A stretch of 64,000 nt of DNA from an uncultured Candidatus Saccharibacteria bacterium (lineage in GTDB: Bacteria > Patescibacteriota > Minisyncoccia > Phycocordibacterales > Phycocordibacteraceae). The position numbers and the translations under genes were made by a program. This document shows positions 25,035-44,107 of this stretch, in pieces. The stretch lies in NCBI GenBank assembly GCA_964607655.1, contig CAZSKX010000001.1:147434-211433 (forward strand). Reading direction: 5' to 3'. Numbering within the stretch: position 1 is the stretch's first letter; every line of letters starts with the position of its first letter. The notes under the pieces were generated by a model. The model was not told where the DNA came from. It was given only the letters and a program-made list of their open reading frames with translations, and did not search any database.

Positions 25035-25044
25035 AGAAAGAGGG

Positions 25045-25086
25045 CGGGTCGCAATCGCGTAAGAAGCGATTGCGACCCGCTTTTTC
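25045..25086 (+). terminator. intrinsic terminator
   Basis: GCGGGTCGCAATCGC-gtaagaa-GCGATTGCGACCCGC plus TTTTT. Confidence 0.8.
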
Positions 25087-25598: not shown

Positions 25599-25625
25599 CG
25601 TCGTAGACTTGGGTAAATACAACAC

Positions 25626-25662
25626 GGGGCGTAGCAGTGATGCTACGCCCCGTTTCTTGTTT
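25626..25662 (+). terminator. intrinsic terminator
   Basis: GGGGCGTAGCA-gtga-TGCTACGCCCC followed by GTTTCTTGTTT. Confidence 0.7.
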
Positions 25663-27311: not shown

Positions 27312-27400
27312 TATTTAATGTCCTCCAGGTACGTTTTCTGTGCCTACCATAACACAAAACCCCGGCCGTGTATACACGGCCGGGGTTTTGGTTGTATGAG

Positions 27401-38710: not shown

Positions 38711-39142
38711 TTATTTAGTGACCGTGTCCACCTTCTCGGCGAAGCTCTCAGCGTCGCGTTCGATCGCGGCCGTGTAGTTCTTCCAGGCCTTCTCTTCCCA
38801 GATCTCGACCCGATCGGCCACACCGGCGACTACCGCCTTCTCCTTGACGCCAGCATAGGCCTTCAGGTGGTCAGGGATGAGGATGCGGCCTGAGCCGTCG
38901 ACTTCGACTTCACTACTGCCCGCTAGGAAGAGGCGTGCGAGACCGCGACGTGCAGCCGAGCCATTCACTTCACTCGCATAGCTCTTGGCCTCGCGCTCCC
39001 AGGCCTTCCTCGAGAACACGTACAGACAATGATCAAGGCCGCGGGTCACCACGACCACGCGGCCAAGATCTTTGCGAAATTTCGAAGGAATCGAAACTCG
39101 ATTTTTTGTGTCAAAAGTGTGTAGGTATTCTCCGAGGAACAT
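38711..39142 (-). CDS. mraZ: transcriptional regulator MraZ
   Basis: MFLGEYLHTFDTKNRVSIPSKFR and duplicated SpoVT/AbrB-like halves. Confidence 0.85.
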   Translation of the reverse strand: MFLGEYLHTFDTKNRVSIPSKFRKDLGRVVVVTRGLDHCLYVFSRKAWEREAKSYASEVNGSAARRGLARLFLAGSSEVEVDGSGRILIPDHLKAYAGVKEKAVVAGVADRVEIWEEKAWKNYTAAIERDAESFAEKVDTVTK

Positions 39143-39229: not shown

Positions 39230-39253
39230 AAGATTGCATGAAGTTATTAACAC

Positions 39254-39282
39254 TTGACTCGGTAAGATTATTGTTTTAATCT
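39254..39282 (+). promoter_or_regulatory. sigma70-like promoter TTGACT-17-TAATCT
   Basis: Divergent from the mraZ promoter; drives the 39316/39513 gene pair. Confidence 0.5.
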
Positions 39283-39315
39283 ACAAACAGAACAAAAAAG
39301 TGAGGTGCGTAACCG

Positions 39316-39513
39316 ATGAAGGTTCATTTTGCTGTCGCCATCAATGACTTTTCAGCGTTTCAAGCTGGGGATGAGGTGCCGATTCTCGAACCGTCCAACG
39401 ACACTGTCGTGGGCGCTGAGAAGGTTCGTATCACTGCGGAGATTGACGAGGTCAAGACCTTCGTCAGCGAAGACGAAGTCCGTATGGTCCGACGAGTTAA
39501 GGAGAGGTTCTAA
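39316..39513 (+). CDS. small hypothetical protein (65 aa)
   Basis: GAGGTG Shine-Dalgarno sequence; stop overlaps the next start (TAATGG). Confidence 0.4.
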   Translation: MKVHFAVAINDFSAFQAGDEVPILEPSNDTVVGAEKVRITAEIDEVKTFVSEDEVRMVRRVKERF

Positions 39514-39770
39514 TGGAAGTCGACATGAGACATCCCGTAGCCGATCGGTCAGCGGCGGCCATCGAAGCTGTCAAACAACACTTCAACCATCCGGGGATCG
39601 CCTACGAGTGGATTTCTCTCGGCGCGAAGTCGGTCGATGCCACGGAGTTCTTGATCGGAGGGTGGCTCTCGCGAGGTGAGATCGAATGCTATCCGGTCTG
39701 CCTCGTCGCCGACGGCACGATCGTGGACGTCGAATTTTTTGGGATGTACTGCCCCTTCGGCGTTCTCTGA
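39513..39770 (+). CDS. small hypothetical Cys-containing protein (85 aa)
   Basis: Translationally coupled to the upstream ORF; C-terminal CYPVC...CPFG. Confidence 0.4.
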   Translation: MEVDMRHPVADRSAAAIEAVKQHFNHPGIAYEWISLGAKSVDATEFLIGGWLSRGEIECYPVCLVADGTIVDVEFFGMYCPFGVL

Positions 39771-39778
39771 ACGAATAC

Positions 39779-39850
39779 CGGCGCGGACTTGGAAACAAGT
39801 CCGCGCCGTTTCTTTTTATGCTTGACGTGAGTAGATTACCAGTTTATTAC
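39779..39850 (+). repeat. terminator-promoter cassette, copy 1 (hairpin + T-run + TTGACG-17-TATTAC)
   Basis: CGGCGCGGACTTGGAAACAAGTCCGCGCCGTTTCTTTTTAT is identical to 40953-40993. Confidence 0.75.
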
Positions 39851-39892
39851 TAAAGGAGTCCATAACATTCTGTTCTTAGAAGGAGAACGTAC

Positions 39893-40141
39893 ATGGGATA
39901 CCCAATTTTGGAGCGTCAGCTCGGCATTCTGAGGGAGTTTCTCGATCAGCTCGAGATCCCCTACAACATCTGCTGCTCGTGGTCTCCGGGTTGTACGCTC
40001 AGTCCGATTTACTGGCTTGTGCGGACGACGCACGGCACGGGGGAATTCAAAGTGGAGTCCCTTGTGGACTACGAAGTGAAGGAATCCCGGGAAGAGACTC
40101 GGGTGGTCGTTGTCGGAATTCGTTCTGCAGATTGCCACTAG
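39893..40141 (+). CDS. small hypothetical Cys-rich protein (82 aa)
   Basis: AGGAGA Shine-Dalgarno sequence; contains CCSWSPGC and a C-terminal CH. Confidence 0.4.
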   Translation: MGYPILERQLGILREFLDQLEIPYNICCSWSPGCTLSPIYWLVRTTHGTGEFKVESLVDYEVKESREETRVVVVGIRSADCH

Positions 40142-40162
40142 GAGATGATCTAGAAGCCCACA

Positions 40163-40231
40163 GGGAAGCCCGCAAGCTTCTCGTGGGCTTCCCTTTTATA
40201 TATTGACAATTAGACATATATATGCTATTTT
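40163..40231 (+). promoter_or_regulatory. terminator hairpin followed by a consensus promoter TTGACA-17-TATTTT
   Basis: GGGAAGCCCGC-aagcttctc-GTGGGCTTCCC plus TTTTATATA, then TTGACA at 40203. Confidence 0.6.
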
Positions 40232-40283
40232 ATTTAGGTACCCAGCAATGGGAAGTCGCTATGTACCAAGGAGGTGTTTGAAG

Positions 40284-40463
40284 ATGTTCTCACTGATCAT
40301 CGGAGCCGCATGCGCGGGAGGCTGTGTTTACACACTTTCGGACAGTCGCATGGCAGGAGCCCTGGCGGCTGGCGGAGTGTATTTCACCGTCTCAGCGATC
40401 GAAACTATCATGGCGGGCCTACTTACCCAGGTGGTACAGCGCATCGCGAAACTGAAGCAGTAA
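40284..40463 (+). CDS. small membrane protein (60 aa, two TM segments)
   Basis: AAGGAGG Shine-Dalgarno sequence 7 nt upstream; hydrophobic Gly/Ala-rich helices. Confidence 0.45.
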   Translation: MFSLIIGAACAGGCVYTLSDSRMAGALAAGGVYFTVSAIETIMAGLLTQVVQRIAKLKQ

Positions 40464-40501
40464 GCAACAGGAAGGCACGGTTGTTCCAAGGAGGAAACAT
40501 C

Positions 40502-40918
40502 ATGGCATCTTCGTCTCCGTCCCAAAACGTTACGACAGCGGCGGCTCTCGGGACTCTGATCATGTACCTCATGGTCTTGGTCATGTTTCTGAAGCACGTA
40601 CTCGTACCGCTCTCGCCACTCGTTACGATCGCGTTCGTCGCCCTCGGTACGATCTGGGCTTGCAACTACGGCCAGGCGACGCGCCTGCTCTCGCTCGGCG
40701 GCCTTGGGCTCTACGTGCTGTCGTGGTACGTGGCTCCGACGAACGTCTCGATCACGGACTGGGAGAAGATCCCAAGCGCGTTCGTTCTCCTGCTTGCCTG
40801 TGCGAGCTGGACGTATGCGGCGTTCAGGTCGGGATTCTTCGATCTCTTCCTGTACGCGCTCGTTGCGCTCAAGGGCGGTCTCGAGACTTCCACAGCAGAG
40901 CGTACCTCTGGCGTATAA
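40502..40918 (+). CDS. integral membrane protein (139 aa, about four TM segments)
   Basis: AAGGAGG Shine-Dalgarno sequence; the in-frame longer ORF from 40274 lacks an RBS. Confidence 0.5.
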   Translation: MASSSPSQNVTTAAALGTLIMYLMVLVMFLKHVLVPLSPLVTIAFVALGTIWACNYGQATRLLSLGGLGLYVLSWYVAPTNVSITDWEKIPSAFVLLLACASWTYAAFRSGFFDLFLYALVALKGGLETSTAERTSGV

Positions 40919-40952
40919 ACTGGAGGGCAACGATCAATTTGATCGCCAACAA

Positions 40953-41023
40953 CGGCGCGGACTTGGAAACAAGTCCGCGCCGTTTCTTTTTATACTTGAC
41001 AAAGTATAAGGGTAGTATATACT
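40953..41023 (+). repeat. terminator-promoter cassette, copy 2 (hairpin + T-run + TTGACA-17-TATACT)
   Basis: Identical 41 nt to copy 1; the 15-mer TTGACAAAGTATAAG recurs at 56981-56995. Confidence 0.75.
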
Positions 41024-41027
41024 CCTC

Positions 41028-41192
41028 ATGCCGACTAACACGATGGAACGGTGCGGCTGCGACGGTACTGACCCGTCGCCTTGGAAACAGTTCCCAGACC
41101 TGGTGGGACCGAGATATGGGCGACATCTTGGTTTGGCCGGGGATCTGAGTACAAAGTGGATCGCCCCGCCGGCAGTCGTCATGAATCCATGA
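41028..41192 (+). CDS. leaderless 54-aa Cys-containing micro-ORF, or alternatively a ~180-nt sRNA
   Basis: ATG lies 4-6 nt after the -10 box with no Shine-Dalgarno sequence; the transcript ends at a strong terminator that overlaps the ORF's 3' end. Confidence 0.3.
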   Translation: MPTNTMERCGCDGTDPSPWKQFPDLVGPRYGRHLGLAGDLSTKWIAPPAVVMNP

Positions 41193-41209
41193 CTGCCGGC
41201 GTTTTTTTA
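41168..41209 (+). terminator. intrinsic terminator
   Basis: GCCGGCAGTC-gtcatgaatccat-GACTGCCGGC followed by GTTTTTTT. Confidence 0.75.
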
Positions 41210-41215
41210 TACAAA

Positions 41216-42670
41216 CTACTGTCGAGGGCGCAGCAAGGGGAAGATTTGCGCTTCACGGACGGAAACACCTTCGAGGAAGCTAAAGAGTCTCTCAGAGATC
41301 CCGAAACCGAAGGCTGGGGGCATGCCATATTCAAGCGCCTCAATGAATTCACGGTCGGCCATCTGAGCCTCGTCGTCGCCCGCGTCGCGGAGGGCCTGTT
41401 GGCGATTAAAGCGCTCGGCCTGGTCAACAGGGTCGTTCAATTCGCTGAAGCCCTTCCCAATCTCTGAGCCGGCGATCATGATCTGGAAACGCTCTACTAC
41501 ACGAGGGTCTTTTGCTGATTTCTTTGCGAGCGGTTCAAGATAGACTGGCACATTTATTAAAAATCCGGGGCCTTGGATCGTTTTACGGATTTGTTTCCAA
41601 GCGATGTCGACGAGTCGACCCGTATCGGCGCTGTCTTCATAGGCAATACCTCGATCATCGAGTACAGAAGCCCAATCAGCATCTGTGTCGCGAGGGTCAA
41701 GTCCGTATTCTTTCTGCATTAATTCACAAAAGTCGTACCGTTTCCATTCCCTGTCCAGATCAATCTCAAACCCTTTAATATTGAAAACGCGCGTGCCGTA
41801 GACTTTATCAGCAATTGTACGGTAAAGCTCAGTGAGCATCTCCATCCCTTGCTCAAAATCAGTAAACGCCTGGTAGAACTCAATCTGAGTATAGTCTTGC
41901 GCGTGTTCAGGCGACATTCCCTCGTTTCGAAAGATGCGTCCAATTTCAAATGTCTTGGGGAGCCCTGCCACCATAAGACGCTTCTGCCAGAGCTCCCCAG
42001 CCGAGATGCGGAGGTACACGTCGATATCGAGTGCGTTGTGATGCGTTTCGAAAGGCCGTGCTTCGGCTCCGCCGGTAGTGTTCTCGAGCACAGGAGTTTC
42101 GACCTCGACGAAATCGCGCTCGAGGAGGAACTGCCGCATAGTATTCCAGAACGCTGAGCGACGCTTGATGCGGTCAACCAAATCCTTAGTGAGAAGAATA
42201 TCGAGGTATCGTTTACGATAGCGTTCGTCTTCGTCTTTGATCCCGTACCACTCGTCAGGAAGAGGGCGCAGCGACTTGGCGAGCATGCGCCAGTTGGTAA
42301 GGTCGAGTGAGGGCATCCCGCGCTTGGTCGTGTAAGGCGTCCCCGCGACTTCGATAATGTCGCCCGCATCGACCGTCGCGGCGAACAAGTCGTAAGACTC
42401 GTCTCCCAGCACACTTTTCTGTACGTAACACTGCCCTTTCGTGCCGTCGAAGAGGTCGATGAACATTGCGGCGCCGTGTTCGCGGATACTCATGACCCTG
42501 CCGGCGAGCATCACTTCTTCTCGATTTTTCTCAAGTGTCGAGTAGTTTTCAAGGAATTGCTGGACCGTGTGTGTGCGGTGCGCCTTAGCCGGGTACGCCT
42601 CCATGCCCGCCCCCTTAAGGCGTTCAATTTTTGCTAATCGTTCTGCTCGAACGTCGTCGAGTAGTGCCAT
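41216..42670 (-). CDS. lysS: lysyl-tRNA synthetase (class II)
   Basis: N-terminal OB fold, FRNEGMSPEHAQDYTQIEFYQAF (motif 2) and GMPPAFGFGISERL (motif 3). Confidence 0.9.
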   Translation of the reverse strand: MALLDDVRAERLAKIERLKGAGMEAYPAKAHRTHTVQQFLENYSTLEKNREEVMLAGRVMSIREHGAAMFIDLFDGTKGQCYVQKSVLGDESYDLFAATVDAGDIIEVAGTPYTTKRGMPSLDLTNWRMLAKSLRPLPDEWYGIKDEDERYRKRYLDILLTKDLVDRIKRRSAFWNTMRQFLLERDFVEVETPVLENTTGGAEARPFETHHNALDIDVYLRISAGELWQKRLMVAGLPKTFEIGRIFRNEGMSPEHAQDYTQIEFYQAFTDFEQGMEMLTELYRTIADKVYGTRVFNIKGFEIDLDREWKRYDFCELMQKEYGLDPRDTDADWASVLDDRGIAYEDSADTGRLVDIAWKQIRKTIQGPGFLINVPVYLEPLAKKSAKDPRVVERFQIMIAGSEIGKGFSELNDPVDQAERFNRQQALRDAGDDEAQMADREFIEALEYGMPPAFGFGISERLFSFLEGVSVREAQIFPLLRPRQ

Positions 42671-43934: not shown

Positions 43935-44036
43935 TGTTCTTGCGATCCCGCCTCGCGGTTCGTCCTGCTGGCCGAACATCGCTGCGGCTTCCACAAAAGC
44001 GAAAAGCCTGCCGCAAGGCAGACTTTTCAGCTTTTG
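43935..44036 (-). repeat. conserved ~100-nt structured element 3' of tRNA-Ala, copy 1
   Basis: Shares CCCGCCTCGCGGTTCG..CTGCTG.CCGAACATCGCTGCG..TTCCACA.AAGC..AAAGCC...CTTTTC..CTT.TGTGGA with 50855-50955. Confidence 0.6.
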
Positions 44037-44107
44037 TGGACCTACGGGGAGTCGAACCCCGACCTCGTCCATGCCATGGACGCGTTCTACCGCTGAACTA
44101 TAGGCCC
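44037..44107 (-). tRNA. tRNA-Ala (anticodon GGC)
   Basis: Acceptor GGGCCTA/TAGGTCC with G3:U70, anticodon stem CGTCC/GGACG and loop ATGGCAT; CCA not encoded. Confidence 0.8.

What the first reader, a model, noticed from the sequence alone, without database searches (positions are those of the whole stretch)
39250..41210. Locus of four tiny transcription units, each with its own near-consensus sigma70 promoter and hairpin terminator, encoding small Cys-containing and membrane proteins
Within about 2 kb, directly divergent from mraZ, I can read four separate units. The first is TTGACT-17-TAATCT driving two translationally coupled ORFs of 65 and 85 aa. The second is TTGACG-17-TATTAC driving an 82-aa Cys-rich ORF. 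The third is TTGACA-17-TATTTT driving a 60-aa and a 139-aa membrane protein. The fourth is TTGACA-17-TATACT driving a 54-aa Cys-containing micro-ORF or sRNA. Each unit ends in a strong hairpin plus T-run. No product resembles a family I recognise. Stacked strong promoters in front of small secreted-type or Cys-rich peptides and small membrane proteins is the architecture seen in bacteriocin/immunity or toxin/antitoxin-like loci and in phage lysis cassettes. Here it sits in a housekeeping neighbourhood of a reduced genome. I regard this as the best candidate in the window for an undescribed small-protein system.
Basis: seen in the sequence. Interest (0 to 1): 0.75.

Follow-up and report, generated by a model that had tools for sequence, protein, structure and literature searches.

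The report
Swappable orphan small-gene cassettes beside mraZ
A 2-kb insert between two housekeeping genes of an uncultured Kaiserbacteria (CPR) genome holds four self-contained mini-genes of unknown function, joined by a repeated terminator-plus-promoter joint that a related metagenome contig uses to carry different genes; there is no evidence that they form a toxin, bacteriocin or lysis system.

Summary
Window 39254-41211 carries four same-strand units, each with a TTGAC-type promoter and a strong hairpin plus T-run. Five ORFs have good Shine-Dalgarno sites. P1, P2 and P3 are acidic, soluble and lack signal peptides. Nothing matches Pfam, NCBIfam, PHROGs, PADLOC, Rfam, phage or plasmid data. 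P2 has only two relatives among 5.8 billion proteins. P3 and P5 have none.

The organism is a Candidatus Kaiserbacteria (CPR) bacterium. In relatives lysS sits directly upstream of mraZ, often 124-260 nt away. Other relatives carry unrelated inserts at that spot, including an IS200-like transposase and a GIY-YIG gene, so it is an insertion hot spot.

The units join head to tail through fused joints: hairpin, T-run, TAT, TTGAC. Two joints are a 53-nt repeat. A related contig (L081) uses the same joint around P2 but with different neighbouring ORFs, and it lacks the P3 unit exactly at the joint.

P2 is a real gene (dN/dS 0.22) with a predicted cystatin/NTF2-like fold. Unit 4 looks non-coding, a candidate sRNA of about 175 nt.

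Best reading: a moron-like array of exchangeable orphan cassettes. What the products do is unknown.

The parts
39254..39282 (+). Promoter 1, TTGACT-17-TAATCT. An overlapping alternative is TTAACA-16-TATTGT at 39247-39274. This is the left edge of the insert.
   Evidence: Sequence read; scan. Homology of the mraZ upstream region to relatives ends at about 39255.
39316..39513 (+). P1: 65 aa, soluble, acidic (pI 4.8), orphan ORF. Its stop overlaps the P2 start (TAATG).
   Evidence: Codon score 0.39, like genome genes. No family or phage hits.
39513..39770 (+). P2: 85 aa, soluble, acidic, 3 Cys. It is the only cassette protein with relatives. Predicted fold is one helix plus a four-stranded antiparallel sheet (cystatin/NTF2-like).
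39774..39826 (+). Joint J1: copy 1 of the 53-nt repeat. It comprises the hairpin terminator (39779-39808), a T-run, TATGC, and the TTGAC of promoter 2.
   Evidence: Direct repeat at 94% identity. Hairpin -28.2 kcal/mol, z -8.0. The same module occurs twice in L081.
39822..39850 (+). Promoter 2, TTGACG-17-TATTAC.
   Evidence: Sequence read.
39893..40141 (+). P3: 82 aa, soluble, acidic, 4 Cys, orphan ORF. The whole P3 unit (39822-40202) is absent from L081.
   Evidence: Self hit only. Codon score weak at 0.10, but the best of six frames, with gene-like GC by codon position. Strong AAGGAG Shine-Dalgarno. AF2 model poor, pLDDT 51.
40153..40202 (+). Joint J2: a different hairpin terminator (40153-40191), then T-run and TATATA, abutting the TTGACA of promoter 3.
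   Evidence: -27.3 kcal/mol, z -5.7. Alignment of joints.
40203..40262 (+). Promoter 3, TTGACA-17-TATTTT with an upstream TG, plus a conserved 5' leader (ACCCAGCAATGGGAAGTC) shared with L081.
   Evidence: 80.6% identity to L081 693-762 although the downstream ORFs differ.
40284..40463 (+). P4: 59 aa, Gly/Ala-rich, hydrophobic, basic C-terminus. A small membrane protein with no relatives found.
   Evidence: (codon score 0.31). No family hits.
40502..40918 (+). P5: 138 aa, polytopic membrane protein with roughly four to five hydrophobic segments, orphan. The public annotation starts it 20 codons later (118 aa).
   Evidence: self hit only; score 0.29. AAGGAGG Shine-Dalgarno 7 nt before the ATG at 40502.
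40948..41000 (+). Joint J3: copy 2 of the 53-nt repeat. It comprises the hairpin (40951-40984), a T-run, TATAC, and the TTGAC of promoter 4.
   Evidence: -30.4 kcal/mol, z -8.8.
40996..41023 (+). Promoter 4, TTGACA-16-TATACT (11 of 12 matches). It is homologous to the promoter after joint Ja in L081.
41028..41208 (+). Unit 4: a candidate non-coding RNA of about 175 nt. The alternative is a leaderless 54-aa ORF, P6, at 41028-41192.
   Evidence: Codon score -0.085 and flat GC by codon position. No Shine-Dalgarno, and the ATG lies 4 nt after the -10 box. MFE -76.5 kcal/mol, z -3.05 with the terminator, but only z -1.8 without it. No Rfam match.
41167..41211 (+). Terminal hairpin terminator, then T-run and TATAC. 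This is a half-joint with no TTGAC after it, and it marks the right edge of the insert, 5 nt before the lysS stop codon (41216-41218, minus strand).
   Evidence: -24.5 kcal/mol, z -5.8. Alignment.

Best explanation
This is a lineage-restricted accessory insert of about 1.96 kb (about 39254-41211) in the lysS-mraZ intergenic hot spot of a Candidatus Kaiserbacteria (CPR/Patescibacteria) chromosome.

It is a head-to-tail array of four autonomous, moron-like transcription units. Each starts at a sigma70-type -35 box (TTGAC) and ends with a strong intrinsic terminator. The terminator's T-run runs, through a short TAT(R)(Y) core, straight into the -35 box of the next unit.

Payloads:
- a translationally coupled pair of small acidic cytoplasmic proteins (P1/P2)
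- one small Cys-containing cytoplasmic protein (P3)
- two membrane proteins (P4/P5)
- most likely one sRNA of about 175 nt

Shown:
- the anatomy
- the orphan status of the products
- purifying selection on P2
- the absence of the array from the mraZ loci of 61 Kaiserbacteria-type species genomes
- the re-use of the same joint with other payloads in a related contig

Inferred:
- The units are transcribed independently and constitutively.
- The conserved terminator-promoter joints are the places where payloads are gained, lost and exchanged. This would happen by homologous or short-homology recombination, or by an unidentified site-specific activity.
- The products are dispensable, niche-specific accessory factors (envelope, host-interaction or phage-interaction functions) rather than one coherent toxin or bacteriocin system.
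For: Anatomy.

Organism and synteny:
- MraZ is 70-85% identical in 61 Kaiserbacteria/Paceibacterota-type loci.
- lysS lies directly upstream of mraZ on the same strand, with a gap of 124-260 nt in 15 of 27 of these Kaiserbacteria-type loci where the gap could be measured. The gap is 480-3400 nt, with unrelated content, in the rest. It is 2073 nt in the window.
- Inserts elsewhere include an IS200-like Y1 transposase, a GIY-YIG gene, a PaaX-like gene and orphan ORFs.
- None of P1-P6 is found in those loci.
- The flanks are housekeeping genes.

Real genes:
- Shine-Dalgarno sites.
- Codon scores of P1, P2, P4 and P5 lie within the range of genome genes.
- P2 has dN/dS 0.22.

Orphans.

Cassette behaviour:
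- L081 reads joint, a 77-aa TM ORF (not P1), a P2 homologue (87% nt identity), joint, a promoter-3-type leader, then a different TM ORF.
- L081 joint Jb equals the left half of window J1 plus the right half of window J2. The P3 unit is therefore a precise insertion or deletion at the TAT-TTGAC core.
- The array's left edge is native sequence followed by TTGAC. Its right edge is TATAC followed by native sequence.
- Joint copies within one genome share genome-specific variants: GCCGTTTC in the window and GCCGCTTC in L081.
- The gene map of a JGI contig shows the same placement next to a divergent 133-aa gene cut by the contig end (probably mraZ, not verified because no DNA was returned), with 172-nt spacing: 63 aa, then 85 aa. 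A second JGI contig shows the same 63-aa/85-aa pair followed by other genes.
Against: - There are no transcript data, so promoters and terminators are predictions.
- Only one relative is available as DNA (L081, 1.2 kb), plus two gene maps. The exchange model rests on very few genomes and could also be explained by vertical descent with deletions.
- No recombinase or mobile-element gene lies in or next to the array.
- The joint was not found in 1.04 Mb of related loci, nor in the metagenome or viral collections. A widespread cassette system is therefore not demonstrated.
- GC content (0.49-0.57) is only slightly below that of the flanks, and codon usage is native-like, so a recent foreign origin is not evident.
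- The function of every product is unknown.
Confidence: 0.6

Rival explanations
1. Bacteriocin plus immunity locus. P4 would be a leaderless or Gly-rich membrane-active peptide, P5 its polytopic immunity protein, and P2/P3 Cys-containing peptides.
For: P4 is 59 aa, basic (pI 8.8), Gly/Ala-rich and hydrophobic. It is co-transcribed with the multi-TM protein P5. The locus varies between strains.
Against: - No double-glycine or Sec leader on any product.
- No ABC exporter, C39 peptidase or modification enzyme in the array or its flanks.
- No hit to any bacteriocin or immunity family.
- P1-P3 are acidic and cytoplasmic.
Confidence: 0.07
2. P1/P2 form a type II toxin-antitoxin pair or a small defence module, and the other units are unrelated passengers.
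For: Two small genes of 65 and 85 aa overlap in TAATG. The pair appears to be kept as 63 aa plus 85 aa in two JGI contigs. It sits in a variable hot spot.
Against: - No TA or defence family hit in Pfam, NCBIfam or PADLOC.
- Both proteins are acidic (pI 4.8 and 4.6).
- In L081, P2 (81% identical) is partnered with an unrelated 77-aa membrane protein instead of P1.
Confidence: 0.08
3. Remnant of a phage or plasmid early region or lysis cassette integrated at the lysS terminator.
For: Stacked strong promoters in front of small orphan ORFs resemble phage early regions and morons (definition in PMC3594210). Other relatives carry mobile-element genes at the same spot.
Against: - No phage, integrase or endolysin gene.
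- No DNA or protein match in 50,697 phage genomes, 72,556 plasmids, IMG/VR or BFVD.
- No PHROG hit below E = 0.1.
- Codon usage is native-like.
Confidence: 0.12
4. The ORFs are chance reading frames in a long regulatory intergenic region, and the hairpins are structural repeats such as REP-like elements.
For: P3 and P6 have weak or negative codon scores. Most products have no homologues.
Against: - P2 is under purifying selection.
- P1, P2, P4 and P5 have gene-like codon scores and GC by codon position.
- Five canonical Shine-Dalgarno sites lie at the right distance.
- The source's own annotation calls P2, P3 and P5.
Confidence: 0.05

Closest known systems
Phage 'morons': independent transcription units inserted between phage genes (PMC3594210, 'The moron comes of age')
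   Same: Each unit has its own promoter and intrinsic terminator. The units add 'more DNA' between conserved neighbours, vary in presence between related genomes, and carry small accessory payloads of unknown or host-benefit function.
   Different: The array is not in a phage or prophage. It sits between chromosomal housekeeping genes of a CPR bacterium. The units are stacked in tandem and share a fused, repeated terminator-promoter joint. No phage homology was found at all.
Chromosomal horizontal-transfer hot spots or 'islets' between conserved core genes (my own knowledge of comparative-genomics literature, not checked against a paper here)
   Same: The same pair of core genes (lysS, mraZ) flanks different accessory content in different species. 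That content includes transposase and homing-endonuclease-like genes.
   Different: The insert is very small (2 kb), has no integrase or tRNA, and consists only of orphan mini-genes in a regular promoter-to-terminator array.
Integron gene-cassette arrays
   Same: Tandem, same-orientation cassettes are each bounded by a hairpin-forming element. Hybrid joints are consistent with crossover at a short core next to the hairpin (L081 Jb = J1 left + J2 right). Many payloads are orphans.
   Different: There is no IntI gene. The hairpins are perfect terminator stems with T-runs, not imperfect attC sites with R/L boxes. The core is TAT-TTGAC, not GTTRRRY. Every cassette carries its own promoter.
Cystatin/NTF2-like small alpha+beta proteins (for P2 only)
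   Different: Sequence identity is at most 19%, with no sequence-level relationship. The fold is generic and does not assign a function. The model comes from a 3-sequence alignment (pLDDT 77).

Membership tests
Phage moron | Autonomous transcription unit with its own promoter and its own terminator | tested here: met
   Met by sequence prediction only. There are four TTGAC-type promoters and four hairpin plus T-run terminators. No transcript data are available.
Phage moron | Located inside a phage or prophage genome, between phage genes | tested here: not met
   The flanks are greA-lysS and mraZ-rsmH-ftsI-mur. No phage similarity was found.
Phage moron | Present in some related genomes and absent from others at the same position | tested here: met
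   Absent from the mraZ loci of 61 Kaiserbacteria-type genomes. The P3 unit is present in the window and absent from L081.
Integron cassette array | Adjacent IntI tyrosine recombinase with attI and Pc | tested here: not met
   Ten flanking genes were scanned with Pfam and none is a recombinase. Only about 5-6 kb on either side was checked.
Integron cassette array | attC sites: imperfect hairpins with extrahelical bases and a GTTRRRY core | tested here: not met
   The stems are perfect or nearly perfect, 13-16 bp, followed by T-runs. The core is TAT(R)(Y)-TTGAC.
Type II toxin-antitoxin | Two small, translationally coupled genes | tested here: met
   The P1 stop and P2 start overlap in TAATG.
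Type II toxin-antitoxin | Membership of a known toxin or antitoxin family or fold | tested here: not met
Type II toxin-antitoxin | The pair is inherited together | tested here: inconclusive
   A 63-aa plus 85-aa pair occurs in two JGI contigs (no DNA available). In L081, P2 follows an unrelated 77-aa TM ORF.
Class II bacteriocin / immunity locus | Precursor peptide with a double-glycine or Sec leader | tested here: not met
   No leader-like N-terminus was found in P1-P4 or P6. This rests on a hydropathy scan and reading of the sequences, not a dedicated predictor.
Class II bacteriocin / immunity locus | Dedicated exporter or processing genes nearby | tested here: not met
   None in the array or among the ten flanking genes.
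Phage lysis cassette | Holin together with an endolysin, with or without a spanin | tested here: not met
   P4 is holin-sized but matches no PHROG or Pfam holin family. No muralytic domain is present in any ORF.
Known sRNA families (Rfam 15), for unit 4 | Covariance-model match at or near the gathering score | tested here: not met
   Only terminator-driven chance hits were found, at 16-24 bits against gathering scores of 42-102.

The most novel reading that the evidence does not exclude
The fused hairpin/T-run/TAT-TTGAC joint is the recombination site of a previously undescribed gene-cassette system in CPR bacteria that carries its own promoters. It would follow integron-like logic, with each cassette bringing its own promoter and terminator. 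Orphan small-protein and sRNA payloads would be captured, excised and reshuffled at the lysS-mraZ hot spot by an unidentified recombinase or by hairpin-targeting Y1 transposase-like enzymes, such as those found at the same spot in relatives L056 and L058.
Probability: 0.1. Interest if true: 0.75.

Novelty: new variant of a known kind. Interest (0 to 1): 0.4.

Why it matters
CPR/Patescibacteria genomes are tiny, and a large share of their genes have no known function. How they gain and exchange accessory genes is poorly understood.

This locus gives a compact, readable example. A conserved housekeeping junction (lysS-mraZ) serves as an insertion hot spot across Kaiserbacteria. In one lineage it holds a regular array of self-expressed orphan mini-genes whose conserved terminator-promoter joints, rather than the genes, are what related genomes share.

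If the joints prove to be recombination sites, that would be a new way of building cassette arrays. If not, the locus is still a clean set of candidate strain-specific small proteins, plus one candidate sRNA, for metatranscriptomic and structural follow-up.

It does not bear on a long-standing open question, and no function can yet be assigned.

Tried and rejected
- **Family scans.** Pfam, PHROGs, PADLOC and NCBIfam scans of all six ORFs gave nothing below E about 0.02, and nothing near any cut-off.
- **Rfam.** Gathering and E<=10 searches found only tRNAs in the window and terminator-driven noise in the locus.
- **Large protein searches.**
  - P2 gave itself plus two JGI proteins.
  - P3 and P5 gave self hits only.
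  - The P2 profile against 1.84e9 representatives gave one extra hit, P0006. It is a 717-aa repeat artefact matched through nine copies of a short motif, and I rejected it.
- **Exact-protein look-ups.** Window proteins are not on record. The P0003 contigs gave gene maps but no DNA.
- **Collection scans.**
  - The joint pattern found nothing in metagenome contigs or viral contigs.
  - The P2 alignment found nothing in metagenome contigs or viral contigs.
  - P5, P1 and P3 found nothing in viral contigs.
- **Phage and plasmid searches.** blastn of the whole locus against phages and plasmids, and tblastn of P5, P2 and P1 against phages, gave no match.
- **PDB sequence search** of P1 and P3 gave nothing.
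- **Structure.**
  - AF2 of P3 as a single sequence was too poor to use (pLDDT 51).
  - afdb50 was not available.
  - BFVD had no significant match to the P2 model.
- **Covariance model of the joint.** It found no further copies in 1.04 Mb of related loci. The similar-looking lysS terminator stems of relatives (CGGCGCGG...) did not score significantly (L043, E = 1.9). I do not claim that the joint derives from the lysS terminator.
- **Paralogy.** There is none among P1-P6 or elsewhere in the window.
- **Literature.** Searches on Kaiserbacteria/Patescibacteria variable regions returned nothing relevant.
Full report
**What is in the sequence**

The region lies between mraZ (38711-39142, minus strand; Pfam MraZ 2.3e-32) and lysS (41216-42670, minus strand; class II tRNA synthetase 5.7e-65). 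Six ORFs lie on the plus strand:

| ORF | Coordinates | Length |
|---|---|---|
| P1 | 39316-39513 | 65 aa |
| P2 | 39513-39770 | 85 aa |
| P3 | 39893-40141 | 82 aa |
| P4 | 40284-40463 | 59 aa |
| P5 | 40502-40918 | 138 aa |
| P6 | 41028-41192 | 54 aa |

P2 overlaps P1 in TAATG. The only correction is that the fourth has a 16-nt spacer.

The four terminators are strong. They fold at -24.5 to -30.4 kcal/mol, with z-scores of -5.7 to -8.8. P1-P5 each have an AAGGAG-type ribosome-binding site at the right distance. P6 has none.

Strong terminators are about 15 times denser here than in the rest of the 64-kb window.

The units are joined by fused joints. The terminator's T-run leads through a short TAT(R)(Y) core directly into the -35 TTGAC of the next unit.

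Two of the joints (39774-39826 and 40948-41000) are a 53-nt direct repeat, 94% identical, with the hairpin and T-run 100% identical. The motif occurs nowhere else in the window. The fused arrangement occurs three times here and nowhere else in 1.33 Mb of window plus related loci.

The array starts exactly at a TTGAC (39254), where homology of the mraZ upstream region to relatives stops. It ends with a half-joint, hairpin/T-run/TATAC with no TTGAC, 5 nt before the lysS stop codon.

**Organism and context**

MraZ is 70-85% identical to that of 61 MAGs labelled Kaiserbacteria, Paceibacterota or Parcubacteria. This is a CPR/Patescibacteria genome. The flanking genes are housekeeping: greA and lysS on one side, mraZ-rsmH-ftsI-mur ligase on the other.

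In relatives lysS sits directly upstream of mraZ on the same strand. Among the Kaiserbacteria-type loci (MraZ at least 70% identical) where the lysS-mraZ gap could be measured, the gap is 124-260 nt in 15 of 27 and 480-3400 nt in the others. It is 2073 nt in the window.

The larger gaps hold unrelated genes:
- an IS200-like Y1 transposase (L056; L058 carries a closely similar ORF that was not itself scanned)
- a GIY-YIG gene (L024)
- a PaaX-like gene (L020)
- assorted orphan ORFs, mostly divergent from mraZ, several with their own TTGAC promoter

None of P1-P6 occurs in any of these loci. The lysS-mraZ spacer is therefore an insertion hot spot, and the window's array is one lineage-specific occupant.

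**Are the ORFs real genes?**

I scored codon usage against 26 long genes of the window.

| ORF | Codon score | Reading |
|---|---|---|
| P1 | 0.39 | in the range of real genes |
| P2 | 0.23 | in the range of real genes |
| P4 | 0.31 | in the range of real genes |
| P5 | 0.29 | in the range of real genes |
| P3 | 0.10 | weak, but far better than its other five frames, with gene-like GC by codon position |
| P6 | -0.085 | negative, with flat positional GC |

Real genes scored a mean of 0.38, and the 5th percentile of short gene chunks was 0.18.

The P6 ATG lies 4 nt after the -10 box and has no Shine-Dalgarno site. Unit 4 is therefore more likely an sRNA of about 175 nt than a protein gene. Its fold is unremarkable once the terminator is removed (z -1.8; z -3.05 with it). 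It matches no Rfam family.

P2 is under purifying selection against its L081 homologue. dN/dS is 0.22, and differences by codon position are 14/2/20.

**What are the products?**

Nothing matches Pfam, PHROGs, PADLOC or NCBIfam.

- P2 has two relatives (81% identity, short JGI contigs) among 5.8e9 proteins.
- P2 has no genuine remote relative among 1.84e9 representatives. The one extra hit is a repeat artefact.
- P3 and P5 hit only themselves.
- No phage, plasmid or viral-contig similarity was found.

P1, P2 and P3 are acidic (pI 4.6-5.0) and have no hydrophobic N-terminus. P4 is a Gly/Ala-rich small membrane protein. P5 is polytopic.

**Cassette behaviour**

The one relative available as DNA is L081, a 1182-nt JGI contig. 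It reads, in order: joint, a 77-aa membrane ORF unrelated to P1, a P2 homologue, joint, a promoter-3-type leader, and a different membrane ORF.

- Its first joint carries a promoter homologous to the window's promoter 4.
- Its second joint is the left half of window J1 fused to the right half of window J2.
- The whole P3 unit (39822-40202) is therefore a precise insertion or deletion at the TAT-TTGAC core.

Joint copies within one genome share genome-specific variants, which suggests homogenisation or recent duplication.

The gene map of one JGI contig places a 63-aa plus 85-aa (P2) pair 172 nt from a divergent 133-aa gene cut by the contig end. This matches the window's geometry, although the gene's identity as mraZ could not be checked because no DNA was returned. 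A second JGI contig has the same pair followed by other genes.

The L081 downstream membrane gene recurs in another Kaiserbacteria genome (L036). There it has its own promoter and terminator and is flanked by direct repeats.

What related genomes share is the joints and P2, not the set of payloads. This argues against one co-functioning system. It favours independent, exchangeable units.

**Comparison with known kinds**

The units work like phage morons, which are autonomous promoter-gene-terminator inserts (PMC3594210). They are not in a phage, so membership fails on that defining feature.

The array resembles an integron in logic: tandem cassettes, hairpin boundaries and hybrid joints. It fails every defining test, with no IntI, no attC-type site and promoter-bearing cassettes.

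TA, bacteriocin/immunity and lysis-cassette readings each meet at most one architectural criterion and fail the rest (see the membership table).

**Verdict**

The feature is real and well defined. The products are true orphans.

The most defensible statement is a moron-like array of exchangeable orphan cassettes in a conserved chromosomal hot spot of a CPR bacterium. Its unusual element is the repeated terminator-promoter joint.

Product function remains unknown, and the recombination model rests on very few sequences. Interest is moderate at 0.4. There is roughly a 10% chance that the joints define a new kind of cassette system.

Noticed in passing
L011, L013, L015, L016, L017, L021, L023, L037, L042, L043, L045, L049, L051 (lysS-mraZ spacers); window 39243-39251: In Kaiserbacteria relatives the short lysS-mraZ spacer has a conserved layout. 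A GC-rich lysS terminator is followed by a DnaA-box-like TGTGGATAAC, then GTGGG repeats around the mraZ -10 TATAAT (MraZ-operator-like). In the window the TGTGGATAAC box is degenerate (minus-strand GTTAATAAC) and abuts the first cassette promoter.
   Followed up: partly
L056 8911-10000, L058 8648-10000, L024 8723-10000, L020 8674-10000: The same lysS-mraZ spot holds other genes in other species. L056 has an IS200-like Y1 transposase (PF01797, 4.6e-7), and L058 has a closely similar ORF that was not scanned. L024 has a GIY-YIG nuclease-like gene (3e-17) and L020 a PaaX-like regulator. Y1 transposases target DNA hairpins, so the lysS terminator may be the attractor.
   Followed up: partly
L036 18250-19200 (minus strand): A homologue (54-60% identity) of the L081 cassette membrane protein sits about 8.5 kb from mraZ. 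It appears frameshifted (83 aa + 136 aa) and has its own TTGACA-17-TATGAT promoter, a hairpin leader and a terminator. Direct repeats of about 100 nt (TTCTAATCCCTAAAGGCAGTATT...) flank it on both sides.
   Followed up: no
window 43947-44005 and 50867-50925: A 59-nt direct repeat (86% identity), each copy lying next to a tRNA-Ala gene (44036-44107 and 50955-51028). It is probably a shared tRNA flank or promoter region.
   Followed up: no
window 25044-25080, 25623-25654, 27359-27386: Three long perfect hairpins with T-runs on both strands, which look like bidirectional terminators between convergent genes. They show that this genome uses strong intrinsic terminators generally.
   Followed up: no
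window 40502-40918: The public annotation of the source genome starts P5 at an internal Met (118 aa, P0004). The AAGGAGG Shine-Dalgarno site 7 nt before the ATG at 40502 supports the 138-aa form.
   Followed up: partly
window 40232-40262 and L081 730-762: A conserved short leader element, ACCCAG(C/T)AATGGGA(A/T)GTC, lies downstream of promoter 3. It could form a 4-bp stem with a GNRA-like loop, and it is kept in both genomes although the downstream ORFs differ.
   Followed up: no
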